Shown piece after piece: positions 17,470-43,915 of a stretch of 64,000 nt of DNA; position 1 is the first letter of the stretch, and each line of letters starts with the position of its first letter. Location: contig OY969586.1 in the NCBI GenBank assembly GCA_963701305.1, forward strand, positions 345,360-409,359, in the 5' to 3' direction. The translations under genes were made by a program, and so were the position numbers. A model generated the notes under the pieces. It searched no databases, had not been told where the DNA came from, and was given only the letters and a program-made list of their open reading frames with translations. This stretch comes from Candidatus Aminicenantes bacterium. Its GTDB lineage: Bacteria > Acidobacteriota > Aminicenantia > Aminicenantales > CAVYOD01.

Positions 17470-17560
17470 CGGAGAGGGTGGGATTCGAACCCACGGTCCC
17501 AGCATTCACTAGGACAATCGCTTAGCAGGCGATCCTGATCGACCACTCCAGCACCTCTCC
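17470..17560 (-). tRNA. tRNA-Ser(GCT)
   Basis: GGAGAGG acceptor stem, anticodon arm ATCGC-CT-GCT-AA-GCGAT, long variable arm, GGTTCGAATCC; CCA not encoded. Confidence 0.96.
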
Positions 17561-17769: not shown

Positions 17770-17856
17770 CGGAGGGAGAGGGATTCGAACCCCCGTTCCG
17801 GTGAACCGGAAAGCGGTTTTCAAGACCGCCGCCTTAAACCACTCGGCCATCCCTCC
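17770..17856 (-). tRNA. tRNA-Ser(TGA)
   Basis: GGAGGGATGGCCGAGTGGTTTAAGGC, anticodon arm GCGGT-CT-TGA-AA-ACCGC, long variable arm, GGTTCGAATCC; CCA not encoded. Confidence 0.96.
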
Positions 17857-19179: not shown

Positions 19180-19336
19180 CAAAAAAGGGCGGTCGGTTAC
19201 CGCATCTGCGTTTATCTCATCATCTGGTCCTTCTCGCCACAAGAAAACTGGAGATCTTAATCAGCGCCTCCTGTTTCGGTTGTTTTTGACGAAATAGGTG
19301 AGATGGACGAGAAGACAAAAATCAACGGTAAGCAAA

Positions 19337-19687
19337 TCCAATCATGTCATGATAGAGGAGGGGCTTTGGATAGGGCTGCGTCTTTCGTCCCGGATTCCCC
19401 GTTCTAAATCAAGTCTGTTTAAAGATGGGGGGCAGGCGTGGGGGCCCCCCACCCGCAGCGCAAAATTCTAGGCGTGTCTGTCCTGTTCAAGATAGTTGGG
19501 GCACGTGTCCCTGAATTTTGCCGAGGATGGGGGAGCGCCGTCGCGGGGCCCCATCTCCCTCAAGCGTGGCTGATCTGGAGCCTTGGCCCGGAAGAGCCGA
19601 GAAAGACGGGACTCTCTGGCGCCGTTCCGAGCTTTGGGAGCAAAGCCCTCTGCAAAACTCCTTTATCACAGAAAAAGAAATGCTTCC
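19337..19687 (+). repeat. Dispersed ~350 bp structured element, copy 1 (candidate ncRNA or non-autonomous mobile element)
   Basis: Colinear homology with the reverse complement of 42147-42534; imperfect terminal inverted arms at 19351-19377 and 19644-19667; internal hairpins. Confidence 0.88.
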
Positions 19688-19739
19688 AAATCGCCGTCTT
19701 TTTTTGACAAAGCCCTCCTTTTGTACAAAAATATCTCCA

Positions 19740-22461: not shown

Positions 22462-22733
22462 GACCGTGCACCTTGCTCCGACCCTTCCCTCCCCGCGTTA
22501 TTCCGGCAGTTAGCTCGGGCAAGGCTGACTGCAGCACAAGAAACCAACCGTCTACCGCTGCTACCTTCCGGTCCTGACGGGGTTCGGCGGAGGCTCTTTG
22601 CGCAGGGCCCTAACCGTCAACGCCACTTACCGGAACACTGAACAGAAAGAGAACAAGCCTCGGTAAGGAATTCGACCCCACTAGAGCGGATTGTGGGCGA
22701 CAGGGCACCGCTAGCTCCCCATCTAGCACGGTC
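22462..22733 (-). ncRNA. ffs: Large (Alu-domain-containing) signal recognition particle RNA
   Basis: Conserved S-domain GTCAGGACCGGAAGGTAGCAGC; 5' GACCGTGC pairs with 3' GCACGGTC; Alu-like 5' region; TATAAT 6 nt upstream (22740-22745). Confidence 0.93.
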
Positions 22734-40635: not shown

Positions 40636-41432
40636 TCCTGCGCCTCGCTTTTCTCCCTGGTCACTTTGAGGAAGACTTCCTCCAGCGATCTCCGGTTGAA
40701 GCGACTGATCACTTCTTGGGGGGTCCCCTGGGCGATGATCCGGCCCCTGTTCAGGAAAATAATCCGGTCCGAGATCTCCTCCATCTCTTTCATGTTATGG
40801 GAGGTGTAAAGGATCGAGATTCCCTGTTCGGCTTTGATCTTTCTCAACAACGATCTCGTTTTGTCGGCGATGTCCGGATCCAGGCTCGCCGTCGGCTCAT
40901 CGAGAAAAAGGACCCTGGGATCATTGATCAGGGACTTGGCCAGGTTGAGTCGCGTGAGCTGGCCCGAAGACAGGCTCCGAACCTGTTTATCTTTGACTTC
41001 TTCCATCTCAAACGTCGTCAGCACCTGAAGGATCTTTTGTTCTTTACCCTTGACGTTATAGAGCCGAGCGAACACCAGAAGGCTTTCCCGGACGGTTAAG
41101 GAAAAGGGCATGGAGACATAGGTTGAGGAAAAGTTGACGTTCTTGAGGATTTCTTCCCGCTCCCTGGACAGGTCTAGGCCGAAGACTCTGATGCTGCCGG
41201 AATTCGGGGTCGTCAGACCGAGAAGCATATGGATGATCGTCGTCTTCCCGGCACCGTTGGGTCCCAGAAGTCCCAAGATCTCCCCGGCCCGAACTTGGAA
41301 TGAAACATCGTCCACAGCTCGCAAGGTCTTGAAGAGCTTGGTCAGGCCAAGGACTTCGACGACCACATCAGACTGGGGGACGTTCCCCAAGGGGACACCC
41401 TGTCGATGTCCACGGTGCGCCGAAGAATACAT
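40632..41432 (-). CDS. ABC transporter ATP-binding protein (start uncertain)
   Basis: GPNGAGKTT, LSSGQ, FLDEPT. Confidence 0.92.
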   Translation of the reverse strand: MYSSAHRGHRQGVPLGNVPQSDVVVEVLGLTKLFKTLRAVDDVSFQVRAGEILGLLGPNGAGKTTIIHMLLGLTTPNSGSIRVFGLDLSREREEILKNVNFSSTYVSMPFSLTVRESLLVFARLYNVKGKEQKILQVLTTFEMEEVKDKQVRSLSSGQLTRLNLAKSLINDPRVLFLDEPTASLDPDIADKTRSLLRKIKAEQGISILYTSHNMKEMEEISDRIIFLNRGRIIAQGTPQEVISRFNRRSLEEVFLKVTREKSEAQE

Positions 41433-41690: not shown

Positions 41691-42128
41691 GTGAAGAGAT
41701 TAACCCTTTTGATATTGATCGTTCTCTTGGCAGGGGAATTTTCTGGCGGCGAAAATACAGCCGGGGCGGGAAAAGAAATCGAGTCCCTGCTCGACGTTCA
41801 AAAAGCAACCTGGAACCGGGGCGATCTGGATACCTATATGAAATACTATTGGAATTCTGAGGCCCTCACTTTCCAATCAGGGGCCCAGCGGCTTCAGGGC
41901 TGGAAAGCGCTTCTCGCTCGGTATCAGAAAAACTATGGCGGAGATAATGGGGATATGGGAAGCCTCGATTTCACAGACCTGATGATTCGTGTTTTGTCGG
42001 GGGAGCATGCCTATGTCTTGGGTCGGTGGAAAGTGGTCCAGAAAGGGGTAGCCAGGGAGGGAGTTTTCACGCTCATCCTTAAAAGGATGCCCGATGGCTG
42101 GAGAATCATCCACGATCATACTTCATAA
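41691..42128 (+). CDS. NTF2-like/DUF4440 (YybH-like) exported protein
   Basis: SD AGGAGG plus GTG start; WNRGDLD.YM, GWRIIHDHTS. Confidence 0.85.
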   Translation: MKRLTLLILIVLLAGEFSGGENTAGAGKEIESLLDVQKATWNRGDLDTYMKYYWNSEALTFQSGAQRLQGWKALLARYQKNYGGDNGDMGSLDFTDLMIRVLSGEHAYVLGRWKVVQKGVAREGVFTLILKRMPDGWRIIHDHTS

Positions 42129-42146
42129 TATAAGTGAACAGTGAGC

Positions 42147-42534
42147 GGAGCCATTACTTTTCTGGGATAGAAGGGCTTTAGAAAGGACTTTGCTCCCCAA
42201 GCTCCGATCGGCGACCCGAGAGCCACGTCTTTATCGGCTCTTCCGGGTCAGGCTCCAGATCAACCACGATCGAGGGAGATGGGGCCCCGCGACGGCGCTC
42301 CCCCATCCTCGGCAAAATTCAGGGACATATGTCCCAACTCTCTTGAACAAGACAAGTACCCTCCAGAATTTTGCGCTGCGGGTGGGGGGTCCCCACGCCT
42401 GCCCCCCATCTCCCAATAAATTCGATTAAGCAACGGGGCACGGAGGACGGACCGTCGATTTGTCTAGGCTGATCTCCGCTTCATGGTCGCTCCAGCTCTT
42501 TCCAAAGCCCCTCCTCGATAATCAAATGATTGGA
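42147..42534 (-). repeat. Dispersed ~390 bp structured element, copy 2
   Basis: Reverse-complement homolog of 19337-19687 with a ~40 nt insertion; terminal arms at 42166-42189 and 42494-42519; flanked by 7-mer arrays at 42134-42147 and 42576-42589. Confidence 0.88.
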
Positions 42535-42586
42535 GGCGGCAACCCGGTGTGCAGTCTCAAAGAAAATAGTGGACGCTGCTCACAGC

Positions 42587-43915
42587 TCACTTGCCATAAG
42601 GTGCATCAGGAAAGACGATGAGCGGAGTCCTTCCCTGCTCGAAGTCGTCGAGTCGCAGCAAGAACATCCCGATCCCGGCCGCGCCCTGCATCAGGCCTGT
42701 CTGCGCGATGAGGAGGTCGGGCTTGACCCTGTGTTCGGCCTGGATCCATTTCATCTTATCGCCCTCGACAGTCGCCTTGGCCAGCAATTGAGCCGTGATC
42801 CTTCGGCAAAAATCCAGGTAAGTTTTCTCCTTGGTGAGCCGGTAGAGGTTGAGAAAAAAGTCTCCAACTCCGGCCGACCCACAGCAGATCCCGGCGTTGT
42901 TCCAGAAGCCTGGGGCCTGTTTTTCGGGGATCCCACTCTCCGTGATTCCCCGCGCCGATTTGCGCATCCACTCCATCCAAGTCTTGTCTTTGGTGACCTG
43001 ATACAATCGGCAGAACAACTGGGCCGTCCCCACCGGCCCATGGCACCAGCCGAGATAATAGAGGTTCTTGCTATCGGGCTCGTTATGGAAGATGAGACAA
43101 ACATCTCCTTCCGTCTTGGCAATCTGGGTCAGGTAACGAGCTCCGGCCAAGGCTGCATCGAGATATTCTTTTTTGCCGGTTTCTTCATAAAGACTGGCCA
43201 GAAAATAGGCGATCCCGGCCGTCCCGTGTGAAAAATTGGGCATCAGACGGGGAAAGCCGGGGTCCATCGCCCACTTCAGGCCCCCCTCCTCGGGCTTGCC
43301 CAACTCGATGAGCCTGGCCCCTGCTTTCTCAGCCAGAGCGAGCCAGGCAGGATCTTTGGTTTCATGACTGGAATAAATCAAGAACAGGCCGGTTCCGGCA
43401 TCCCCGGAGATGATGTCGGTGACCGTGCCCCATTCGATTCCTCGGCCGGCCTGAGCGGCGCCGGCCTTGATTTTTTCTAAACAGCTCAAAAAGCCGTCCC
43501 TGTATTTTGTCGCCTGGCTGGCCTTGTAAGTTTCCGCGAGGGCAAAGCCGATTCCGGAAAGGCCTTCGTACAGCCCGGCCCCCTTCTCTTCGGCCAGGGT
43601 CGAAAGCAAGTAGTCCGAGCCCGCGCAGGCGTCTTTGAGGAAGTCCTTGTCGGCCGTGGAATTGTAGGCCTCGAGGAAAAAGAGGACGATTCCCGGAGTC
43701 CCGGCATAAAGGCTGTTATTCACGGTCTTGGGGTCGTTCGGGTCGGCCGGCCAGGTGGTGCCCTGCGGTGTCTGGAGAGCCACGGACCTGATCCAATTGG
43801 CTGCTTTCAGCGCGGCTTCGAGATTAGGCCTTTGGATTCCAGCCGCCAGTGAAGTCAACCAGAAAATAACCGTCAGGACGACCGCAGCCCCAAATTTGCT
43901 TTTTTTTGATTTCAT
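42587..43915 (-). CDS. Stand-alone exported LanC-like (lanthionine synthetase C family) protein
   Basis: Signal peptide; repeated GxxG loops; FSHGTAG, GWCHG, ICCGSAG, GLMQGAAG. Confidence 0.85.
   Translation of the reverse strand: MKSKKSKFGAAVVLTVIFWLTSLAAGIQRPNLEAALKAANWIRSVALQTPQGTTWPADPNDPKTVNNSLYAGTPGIVLFFLEAYNSTADKDFLKDACAGSDYLLSTLAEEKGAGLYEGLSGIGFALAETYKASQATKYRDGFLSCLEKIKAGAAQAGRGIEWGTVTDIISGDAGTGLFLIYSSHETKDPAWLALAEKAGARLIELGKPEEGGLKWAMDPGFPRLMPNFSHGTAGIAYFLASLYEETGKKEYLDAALAGARYLTQIAKTEGDVCLIFHNEPDSKNLYYLGWCHGPVGTAQLFCRLYQVTKDKTWMEWMRKSARGITESGIPEKQAPGFWNNAGICCGSAGVGDFFLNLYRLTKEKTYLDFCRRITAQLLAKATVEGDKMKWIQAEHRVKPDLLIAQTGLMQGAAGIGMFLLRLDDFEQGRTPLIVFPDAPYGK

What the first reader, a model, noticed from the sequence alone, without database searches (positions are those of the whole stretch)
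19337..19687. Two-copy ~350-390 nt structured non-coding element with a strand-polarised closing stem and covariation
Seen: 19337-19687 (+) and 42147-42534 (-) align end to end. They share a long near-identical core (CCCTGAATTTTGCCGAGGATGGGGGAGCGCCGTCGCGGGGCCCCATCTCCCTC), and copy 2 has a ~40 nt insertion. In copy 2 the arms GGAGGGGCUUUGGAAAGAGCU and AGUCCUUUCUAAAGCCCUUCU pair at 20 of 21 positions. Four of these are G-U pairs that would be A-C mismatches on the other strand, which points to a single-stranded structure of defined polarity. Internal helices include GCAAAAUUC..GAAUUUUGC and GAUGGGG..CCCCAUC. The palindrome GGGGCAC/GUGUCCC versus GGGACAU/AUGUCCC shows compensatory change, as does GGCCCG..GCC versus GACCCG..CGGGUC. 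No reading frame is conserved. One copy lies between divergent genes and the other between convergent genes, which argues against a cis riboswitch. It matches no RNA family I recognise. Inference: an undescribed multicopy ncRNA, or a non-autonomous element mobilised through RNA or ssDNA.
Basis: partly seen in the sequence, partly recalled or inferred. Interest (0 to 1): 0.8.

Follow-up and report, generated by a model that had tools for sequence, protein, structure and literature searches.

The report
Composite MITE with conserved hairpin core
The two look-alike stretches are copies of a small non-coding jumping element found at dozens of sites in this Aminicenantes genome, built around a hairpin-forming core that relatives also carry; a familiar kind of genomic passenger rather than a new RNA gene.

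Summary
The two stretches are real and alike (84% identity), but they are not a two-copy RNA gene. They are two of 44 intergenic loci of one modular repeat family in this 4.07-Mb genome.

- imperfect terminal inverted repeats of about 50 bp (GTAAGCA...TGCTTCC);
- a 9-bp target duplication;
- an empty site at the same position in the sister species.

At its centre sits a 100-150-nt G/C-rich palindromic "rod". The rod also occurs alone, and diverged forms occur in 8 further genomes of the order. In another genus it sits in 152-nt MITEs with the same kind of ends.

The rod keeps its pairing through compensatory changes. It is far better conserved than the arms around it.

The claimed strand polarity is not reproduced: G-U and A-C counts are balanced. 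No Rfam family matches. No frame stays open in 4 of 5 full copies. No partner transposase and no RNA data were found.

Verdict: a new member of a known kind (ERIC/Correia-like composite MITE). The one open point is why the rod is so conserved.

The scan had earlier noted other repeat families in this genome, but not this one.

The parts
19319..19327 (+). Target-site duplication, left copy of element 1 (AAATCAACG)
   Evidence: Matches the right flank at 7 of 9 positions. The sister genome has a single AGATCGACG at the empty site.
19328..19687 (+). Element copy 1: 360-nt composite MITE with a ~40-nt internal deletion relative to the family
   Evidence: Termini GTAAGCA...TGCTTCC. Window 19317-19689 is absent from G001:C31, with only 3 nt between the flanks.
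19328..19378 (+). Left terminal inverted-repeat arm of copy 1
   Evidence: Aligns to the reverse complement of the right arm and to the left arms of 19 other elements.
19416..19563 (+). Central palindromic rod of copy 1
   Evidence: Covariance model R1, 112.6 bits, E 1.3e-17 (genome 364775-364922).
19629..19687 (+). Right terminal inverted-repeat arm of copy 1
19688..19696 (+). Target-site duplication, right copy of element 1 (AAATCGCCG)
42138..42146 (-). Target-site duplication at the 3' side of element 2 (GCTCACTGT on the minus strand)
   Evidence: Read. It matches the other flank (GCACACCGG) at 6 of 9 positions and the single GCGCACTGC of the sister genome's empty site at 7 of 9. The regex could not pair this copy because its left terminus has diverged.
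42147..42543 (-). Element copy 2: 397-nt composite MITE of full family length
   Evidence: Window 42147-42576 is absent from G001:C31. nhmmer 452 bits over profile positions 5-417.
42147..42204 (-). Right terminal inverted-repeat arm of copy 2
42270..42418 (-). Central palindromic rod of copy 2
   Evidence: Covariance model R1, 120.5 bits, E 4.2e-19 (genome 387629-387777).
42493..42543 (-). Left terminal inverted-repeat arm of copy 2; the outermost ~10 nt have diverged (GTTGCCGCCT where the family has GTAAGCATTT)
42544..42552 (-). Target-site duplication at the 5' side of element 2 (GCACACCGG on the minus strand)

Best explanation
Both stretches are copies of a non-autonomous DNA transposon (a MITE).

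The shell is about 270 nt. It has imperfect terminal inverted repeats of about 50 bp, whose ends read GTAAGCA...TGCTTCC. A transposase made elsewhere would bind these ends and insert the element into a staggered 9-bp cut, which leaves the 9-bp duplication seen on both sides. Both window copies entered after this species split from its sister species, or were lost cleanly from the sister.

The centre of the element is a 100-150-nt G/C-rich imperfect palindrome (the 'rod'). The rod is an older module found across the order. It occurs alone, inside this shell, and in another genus inside 152-nt MITEs with the same kind of ends.

Shown here: multicopy status, inverted ends, target duplications, empty sites, the rod's wider distribution, its covariation and its extra conservation.

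Inferred: the transposase class, and the reason the rod is conserved. My best guess is that the rod is a cis-acting hairpin the element family needs to persist, for example by binding a protein or by drawing the two ends together. It would also form a stable hairpin in any transcript that runs through it. Homogenisation by gene conversion among the roughly 25 rod-bearing loci may add to its uniformity.
For: Copy number and placement:
- 56 nhmmer matches merge into 44 loci, all between genes.

Ends:
- The left arm and the reverse complement of the right arm align in 10 of 10 full elements.
- The termini are shared by 20 left and 18 right ends from three genomes.

Target duplication:
- In a relative with young copies (G023), the 9-nt flanks match at a mean of 7.07 of 9. 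They match at 8 or more of 9 in 8 of 15 elements. Offset control flanks reach 6 or more in 0 of 60.
- In this genus the mean is 6.0 of 9 over 5 elements; controls reach 6 or more in 0 of 20.

Empty sites:
- G001 lacks window 19317-19689 and 42147-42576 while the flanks run on at 86-94% identity.
- Conversely, G001 has a 160-nt shell-only element where G000 is empty.

Shared ends across genera:
- The pattern AGCATYTCCAANCNTGTGAT (up to 3 mismatches) hits 72, 60, 19, 15 and 15 times in G023, G024, G016, G000 and G001. The reversed-pattern control hits 0 times in each.

Rod:
- Model R1 finds 18 full-length rods in G000 and 8 matches in G001, plus weaker matches in 8 of 149 other genomes of the order. 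These share blocks and architecture on inspection.
- On 24 rods and 20 pairs the covariation score is 0.169, against 0.089 +/- 0.010 in shuffles (0 of 500 reach it) and at most 0.064 when the partners are slid.
- Rod blocks are 94.5-96.4% identical among 8 copies, against 63-71% for the arms and the loop. In one orthologous pair the figures are 99 of 104 against 148 of 205 (Fisher p 3.7e-7).
Against: - No transposase with matching ends was found. IS66-type genes occur in 10 of 246 genomes of the order, none with these ends nearby. IS1-type genes occur in 0 of 246. 8 IS4/IS5-type loci in two relatives have no such ends. The one ISL3 gene found between such ends has its own different ends and is an insertion into the element.
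- In a plain MITE the ends should be the best-kept part. Here the centre is better kept than the ends, which a purely selfish reading does not predict.
- Many rods stand alone without these ends, so the rod may have a life of its own.
- Target duplications in this genus are decayed: 6-8 of 9 in 4 of 5 elements and 2 of 9 in one.
- Clean loss from the sister species cannot be formally told apart from gain.
Confidence: 0.78

Rival explanations
1. The rod is a functional multicopy non-coding RNA, or an RNA hairpin that acts on the transcripts carrying it (3'-end protection, processing or termination). It has been conserved by the host across the order. The MITE shell is only one of its vehicles.
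For: - Conserved sequence blocks with a variable closing stem and a variable tip across at least 8 genera.
- Compensatory changes.
- Rod blocks stay at 95% between orthologous copies while their surroundings fall to 70-77%.
- Rods without transposon ends persist at shared sites in both species of the genus.
- At one rod position, 17 of 24 sequences have C opposite A and 6 have U-A. On the complementary strand this reads as G-U or A-U, that is, always paired.
- That complementary strand is the one co-directional with flanking genes in 15 of 20 same-direction contexts (p 0.04).
Against: - No promoter or terminator signal was examined.
- Apart from the one site, G-U and A-C are balanced, and both strands fold about equally well.
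- Neighbouring genes are unrelated. Of 33 flanking ORFs, 22 had Pfam matches, and these spread over many unrelated families.
- Rods are often interrupted by other small elements or internally deleted without visible consequence.
- No Rfam match.
- The polarity hints rest on one inherited site and on 20 loci.
Confidence: 0.14
2. The rod is a REP-like hairpin moved as single-stranded DNA by a tyrosine (Y1/HUH, RAYT-type) transposase.
For: - It is a G/C-rich imperfect palindrome with a conserved mismatch, occurs singly or inside larger units, and lies between genes.
- Y1 transposase genes exist in 4 of 5 relatives that carry rods.
Against: - No Y1_Tnp match in this complete-looking genome (93% completeness).
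- No rod lies within about 1.5 kb of any of the 8 Y1 loci fetched (11 matches were listed).
- The elements carrying the rod have long inverted ends and 9-bp duplications. From established knowledge, single-strand Y1 transposition does not make these.
- Element strand does not switch between the two halves of the chromosome (positions).
Confidence: 0.05
3. A cis-regulatory leader (riboswitch or attenuator) of the adjacent genes.
For: Copy 1 lies 52 nt upstream of the cobO/btuR start on the same strand.
Against: - Copy 2 lies between two convergent gene ends.
- The 44 loci neighbour unrelated genes in every orientation.
- The sister species has the same genes without the element.
Confidence: 0.02

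Closest known systems
ERIC / IRU elements of Enterobacteriaceae and Vibrionaceae
   Same: - A non-coding, intergenic imperfect palindrome of about 100-130 nt, shared across genera.
- Copy number differs widely between lineages.
- No known transposase.
- Forms hairpins in transcripts.
   Basis: passages of the review PMC10969869. My recollection of Wilson and Sharp 2006, which I did not read here, is that ERIC copies are also better conserved than neutral DNA.
   Different: - A different sequence and a different phylum.
- Here the palindrome is often enclosed in a second shell that has its own long inverted ends and 9-bp duplications.
- No RNA-level effect has been tested.
Correia elements (CREE/NEMIS) of Neisseria
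   Same: A short MITE with inverted ends, between genes and at many sites. It is polymorphic between close relatives and has a hairpin-forming transcript (PMC10969869 passages).
   Different: - From memory, Correia elements duplicate TA. Here the duplication is 9 bp.
- No promoter, IHF site or RNase III cleavage has been tested here.
BOX / RUP / SPRITE clusters of Streptococcus pneumoniae and BIMEs of E. coli
   Same: Modular small repeats that occur alone or combined and insert into one another (PMC10969869 passage on BOX/RUP/SPRITE). Here there is a shell plus a rod, and a third small element sits inside rods.
   Different: Unrelated sequences. The modules here are nested palindromes rather than linear A-B-C boxes.
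IS66-family insertion sequences
   Same: The ends begin GTAAGCA, against the family's GTAAGCG. The target duplication is similar in size: 9 bp here, 8 bp in the passage of PMC11946415. An example end is quoted in PMC12888890.
   Different: - Beyond the first six bases the ends are unlike the two IS66 ends seen in this order.
- No IS66 transposase occurs in G000, G001 or G022.
- The duplication length differs by one base.

Membership tests
MITE (non-autonomous DNA transposon) | Terminal inverted repeats | tested here: met
   The left arm aligns to the reverse complement of the right arm in 10 of 10 full elements. The termini are shared by 38 ends.
MITE (non-autonomous DNA transposon) | Target-site duplication of fixed length | tested here: met
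   9 bp. In G023 the mean match is 7.07 of 9 over 15 elements, with 8 at 8 or more of 9. Offset controls reach 6 or more in 0 of 60. In this genus, 4 of 5 elements reach 6 or more of 9.
MITE (non-autonomous DNA transposon) | Small, non-coding, multicopy | tested here: met
   Elements are 93-405 nt. There are 44 loci. Stops occur in all six frames in 4 of 5 full copies.
MITE (non-autonomous DNA transposon) | Presence/absence between close relatives (empty sites) | tested here: met
   Both window copies are absent in G001. One G001 copy is absent in G000.
MITE (non-autonomous DNA transposon) | An autonomous element with the same ends that encodes the transposase | tested here: not met
   None found: IS66; IS1; IS4/IS5; ISL3, which has different ends. 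Only representative genomes of one order were searched, and many are fragmented.
IS66-derived MITE | Ends starting GTAAGCG and an 8-bp duplication (PMC11946415 passage) | tested here: inconclusive
   The ends start GTAAGCA or GGAAGCA, matching 6 of 7 bases. The duplication is 9 bp, not 8. The rest of the end is unlike local IS66 ends.
REP/RAYT system | A Y1 (RAYT) transposase gene in the genome, flanked by the repeats | tested here: not met
   PF01797 has 0 matches in G000. No rod lies near the 8 Y1 loci fetched from relatives.
Structured ncRNA family | Match to a curated RNA family | tested here: not met
   Rfam 15: nothing at the gathering threshold in the window apart from SRP RNA and two tRNAs, and only two chance-level hits at E<=10 on copy 1.
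Structured ncRNA family | Covariation that supports a conserved structure | tested here: met
   8 of 20 pairs change on both sides. Score 0.169 against 0.089 in shuffles (0 of 500 reach it). This is equally expected of a DNA palindrome.
Structured ncRNA family | Strand-specific signature (G-U on one strand only) | tested here: not met
Arms 38:38. Rods 22:41, with about 20 of the 41 at one inherited site.
Structured ncRNA family | A discrete transcript | not testable with these tools
   No RNA run is listed for this organism.

The most novel reading that the evidence does not exclude
The central rod is not junk cargo. It is a host-retained structured RNA (or single-strand DNA) module, conserved with compensatory changes across an order of Aminicenantes. 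It spreads to new transcription units by riding in MITEs.
Probability: 0.15. Interest if true: 0.6.

Novelty: new member of a known kind. Interest (0 to 1): 0.3.

Why it matters
As it stands this is housekeeping knowledge. It adds a MITE family, a palindromic repeat module and their nesting rules to a poorly studied, uncultured lineage. It also warns annotators that these stretches are neither genes nor riboswitches.

Two points go slightly beyond the ordinary. First, the centre of the element is kept far better than its ends, even between orthologous copies. Second, the same module recurs across genera with compensatory changes. If that conservation reflects a host-level RNA or protein-binding role, the family would be a clean case of a functional hairpin distributed by a transposon. 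The rods also appear to be a favoured landing site for an ISL3-type element, which could be useful for studying target choice.

Tried and rejected
- RNA evidence: no RNA holder is listed for the region. Only 10 DNA runs with small shares were listed.
- Rfam: no family matches.
- Conserved peptide: an ATG in the core opens a frame in both window copies, but 1-nt indels shift it between copies. All frames carry stops in 4 of 5 full copies.
- IS66 partner: none in G000, G001 or G022. Of 10 loci in the order, none has matching ends.
- IS1 partner (the ends share GG..CCAA..TGAT spacing with my recollection of IS1): 0 of 246 genomes.
- IS4/IS5 partner: 8 loci, no matching ends.
- A 1.75-kb pair of ends in G023 turned out to be an ISL3 element, with its own ends, inserted into a MITE.
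- Two other wide pairs of ends enclose ordinary genes.
- I first read the duplication as 8 bp from decayed copies in this genome. Young copies in G023 showed it is 9 bp.
- An exact 22-mer hit in a 'Deltaproteobacteria' record is a chance match without the flanking blocks.
- A 20-mer of the left arm scanned over all species gave true elements only in the two Aminicenantes-order assemblies.
- Rods upstream of DPP-IV-like genes in two families looked like a shared ancient site, but the proteins are not orthologues.
- Replication-strand bias: 28 of 44 loci lie on the minus strand (p 0.10), with no switch between chromosome halves.
- A fuzzy-regex genome scan timed out and was replaced by BLAST.

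Full report
**What is at the coordinates**

Window 19300-19720 (+) and 42110-42570 (-) align over their whole length at 84% mean column identity. Against seven further relatives from the same genome, the extra stretch is the family norm and copy 1 carries a deletion.

- Rfam gives nothing for either copy. At gathering thresholds the window holds only an SRP RNA and two tRNAs, and at E<=10 copy 1 has two chance-level hits.
- Copy 2 folds better than shuffled sequence on both strands, z -2.93 and -2.58.
- Copy 1 lies between serS (-) and a corrinoid adenosyltransferase gene (+). Copy 2 lies between a DUF4440/SnoaL-like gene (+) and a LanC-like gene (-).

**It is not a two-copy element**

The window is part of a 4.07-Mb single-contig genome. 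A profile built from five full copies finds 56 matches, which merge into 44 loci. All 44 lie between genes: 16 between divergent genes, 8 between convergent genes and 20 between co-directional genes. Genome-wide the corresponding shares are 18%, 18% and 64%, so the divergent excess has p 0.005.

The family is modular. Loci carry the left arm, the middle, the right arm, or combinations of these.

**It is a mobile element**

The sister species in the collection (G001, same genus) is collinear on both sides of each window copy at 86-94% identity. It lacks window 19317-19689 and window 42147-42576. Conversely, G001 carries a 160-nt arms-only element where this genome is empty. Other copies are shared by both species.

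The left arm is the reverse complement of the right arm over about 50 bp, with termini GTAAGCA...TGCTTCC.

In a relative with near-identical, evidently young copies (G023), the nine bases outside the two ends are direct repeats:
- mean 7.07 of 9 identical over 15 elements;
- 8 elements at 8 or more of 9, two of them perfect;
- offset control flanks reach 6 or more in 0 of 60.

In this genus 4 of 5 elements reach 6 or more of 9. For copy 1 the duplicates are AAATCAACG and AAATCGCCG, and the sister's empty site has one AGATCGACG. For copy 2 they are GCACACCGG and GCTCACTGT, against one GCGCACTGC.

The elements are therefore 19328-19687 (+) and 42147-42543 (-). From established knowledge of insertion sequences, long inverted ends plus a fixed 9-bp duplication are the mark of a DDE-type transposase acting on double-stranded DNA. 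They are not the mark of RNA or single-strand intermediates. That last step is inference.

**The centre is a separate, older module**

Positions 19416-19563 and 42270-42418 are a G/C-rich imperfect palindrome, which I call the rod. A closing stem encloses two highly conserved blocks and an A/T-rich stem with a variable tip.

A covariance model of the rod finds 18 full-length rods in this genome. Ten of them lack the shell's ends. The model gives 8 matches in G001 and weaker matches (38-44 bits) in 8 of the 149 other genomes of the order searched. On inspection those weak matches share the block order and much of the sequence, with their own closing stems and tips.

In genus g9 the rod fills a 152-nt MITE whose ends belong to the same family as the window's shell. 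That end pattern (up to 3 mismatches) occurs 72, 60, 19, 15 and 15 times in G023, G024, G016, G000 and G001, and the reversed-pattern control occurs 0 times in each. So the window copies are one lineage's enlarged version of a MITE superfamily found across the order, in which the rod is a recurrent core. The rod also exists on its own.

**Structure, covariation and polarity**

On 24 rods from 10 genomes, 8 of 20 tested pairs change on both sides while staying paired. The covariation score is 0.169, against 0.089 +/- 0.010 in shuffles (0 of 500 reach it) and at most 0.064 with slid partners. The sequences are related, so these numbers overstate independence.

The claim that G-U pairs mark one strand does not hold:
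- Arms of 10 elements give 38 G-U against 38 A-C.
- 21 rods give 22 against 41, with about 20 of the 41 at a single inherited position (my reading of the marks).
- That position is C opposite A in 17 of 24 rods and U-A in 6. It would be paired throughout only on the complementary strand.
- The complementary strand is also the one co-directional with flanking genes in 15 of 20 same-direction contexts (p 0.04).

**What does not fit a plain MITE**

Among 8 copies in this genome the two rod blocks are 94.5% and 96.4% identical, while the arms and the rod's loop are 63-71% identical. In the one shell-plus-rod copy shared with G001, the rod blocks differ at 5 of 104 sites and the rest at 57 of 205 (p 3.7e-7).

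Selection for transposability should protect the ends, and it does not act on a resident copy. So this pattern points to host-level constraint, to gene conversion among the roughly 25 rod-bearing loci, or to both. I cannot separate these. Rods also decay by internal deletion and are often split by another small element (see below), which argues against every copy being needed.

**Search for the partner**

| Transposase type | Where searched | Result |
|---|---|---|
| Y1 | This genome | None |
| Y1 | 8 loci fetched from relatives | No rod nearby |
| IS66 | G000, G001, G022 | None |
| IS66 | 246 genomes of the order | Present in 10, none with matching ends |
| IS1 | 246 genomes of the order | Present in 0 |
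| IS4/IS5 | 8 loci in two relatives | No such ends |

The ends begin like IS66 ends. Passages in PMC11946415 and PMC12888890 give GTAAGCG and an 8-bp duplication. The likeness stops after six bases and the duplication here is 9 bp, so I leave the IS family open.

**Comparison with known systems**

The nearest analogues are the following (passages of the review PMC10969869):
- ERIC elements: a family-wide imperfect palindrome, intergenic, variable in copy number, with no known transposase and effects on transcripts.
- Correia elements.
- The pneumococcal BOX/RUP/SPRITE repeats, which insert into one another.

A large MITE survey (PMC11602168; only term hits read) does not mention Aminicenantes or IS66. 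I did not search the literature further for this family, so I make no claim that it is absent from print.

Earlier notes of this scan describe other repeat families in the same genome, but none matches this sequence.

**Verdict**

The 'non-autonomous element' reading is right, but the proposed RNA or single-strand route is not supported. This is a new member of a known kind. The unusually conserved, covarying rod is the only part that could turn out to be more than that.

Noticed in passing
L133:365-2027 (G023); G000 genome 820630-820847 and 1265657-1265868; L146, L149, L150, L151 (G023): An ISL3-family transposase gene (420 aa; DDE_Tnp_ISL3 E 5e-72) with its own ends sits inside a rod-bearing MITE in G023. 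Short non-coding derivatives of that element sit inside rods at several loci in G023 and in this genome. The rod looks like a preferred landing site.
   Followed up: partly
window 41372-41401: A different repeat end (a 30-nt G/C-rich stretch with an internal palindrome) directly after a gene. It has 59 BLAST hits in this genome and dozens of exact copies in G001. In G001 an element with these ends has split a rod.
   Followed up: no
window 19290-19320 and 42120-42146 / 42553-42600: Both insertion sites lie in runs of 7-nt repeats (GACGAGA-like at copy 1, GTGAGCA-like inverted arms at copy 2). The copy-2 site differs from the sister genome by about 25 extra bases of such repeats. Earlier notes describe these heptad arrays elsewhere in the genome.
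   Followed up: partly
rod alignment A4, columns 41 and 140 (window 19456/19527 region of copy 1): One position inside the rod is C opposite A in 17 of 24 sequences and U-A in 6.
   Followed up: partly
   Followed up: partly
window 22464-22731 (-), 17470-17560 (-), 17770-17856 (-): A large-type bacterial SRP RNA (177.8 bits) and two long-variable-arm tRNAs lie near copy 1. These are ordinary genes.
   Followed up: no
G000 genome 3555013-3555417 (-): One full element copy has a frame open over all 135 codons, while the other four copies have stops in every frame. Taken as chance.
   Followed up: no
L153, L154, L155 (G024); L152 (G016): MITEs with the same kind of ends carry quite different palindromic cores in other genera. 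In one G016 copy only the rod's closing stem is left. The ends act as a shell for interchangeable centres.
   Followed up: no
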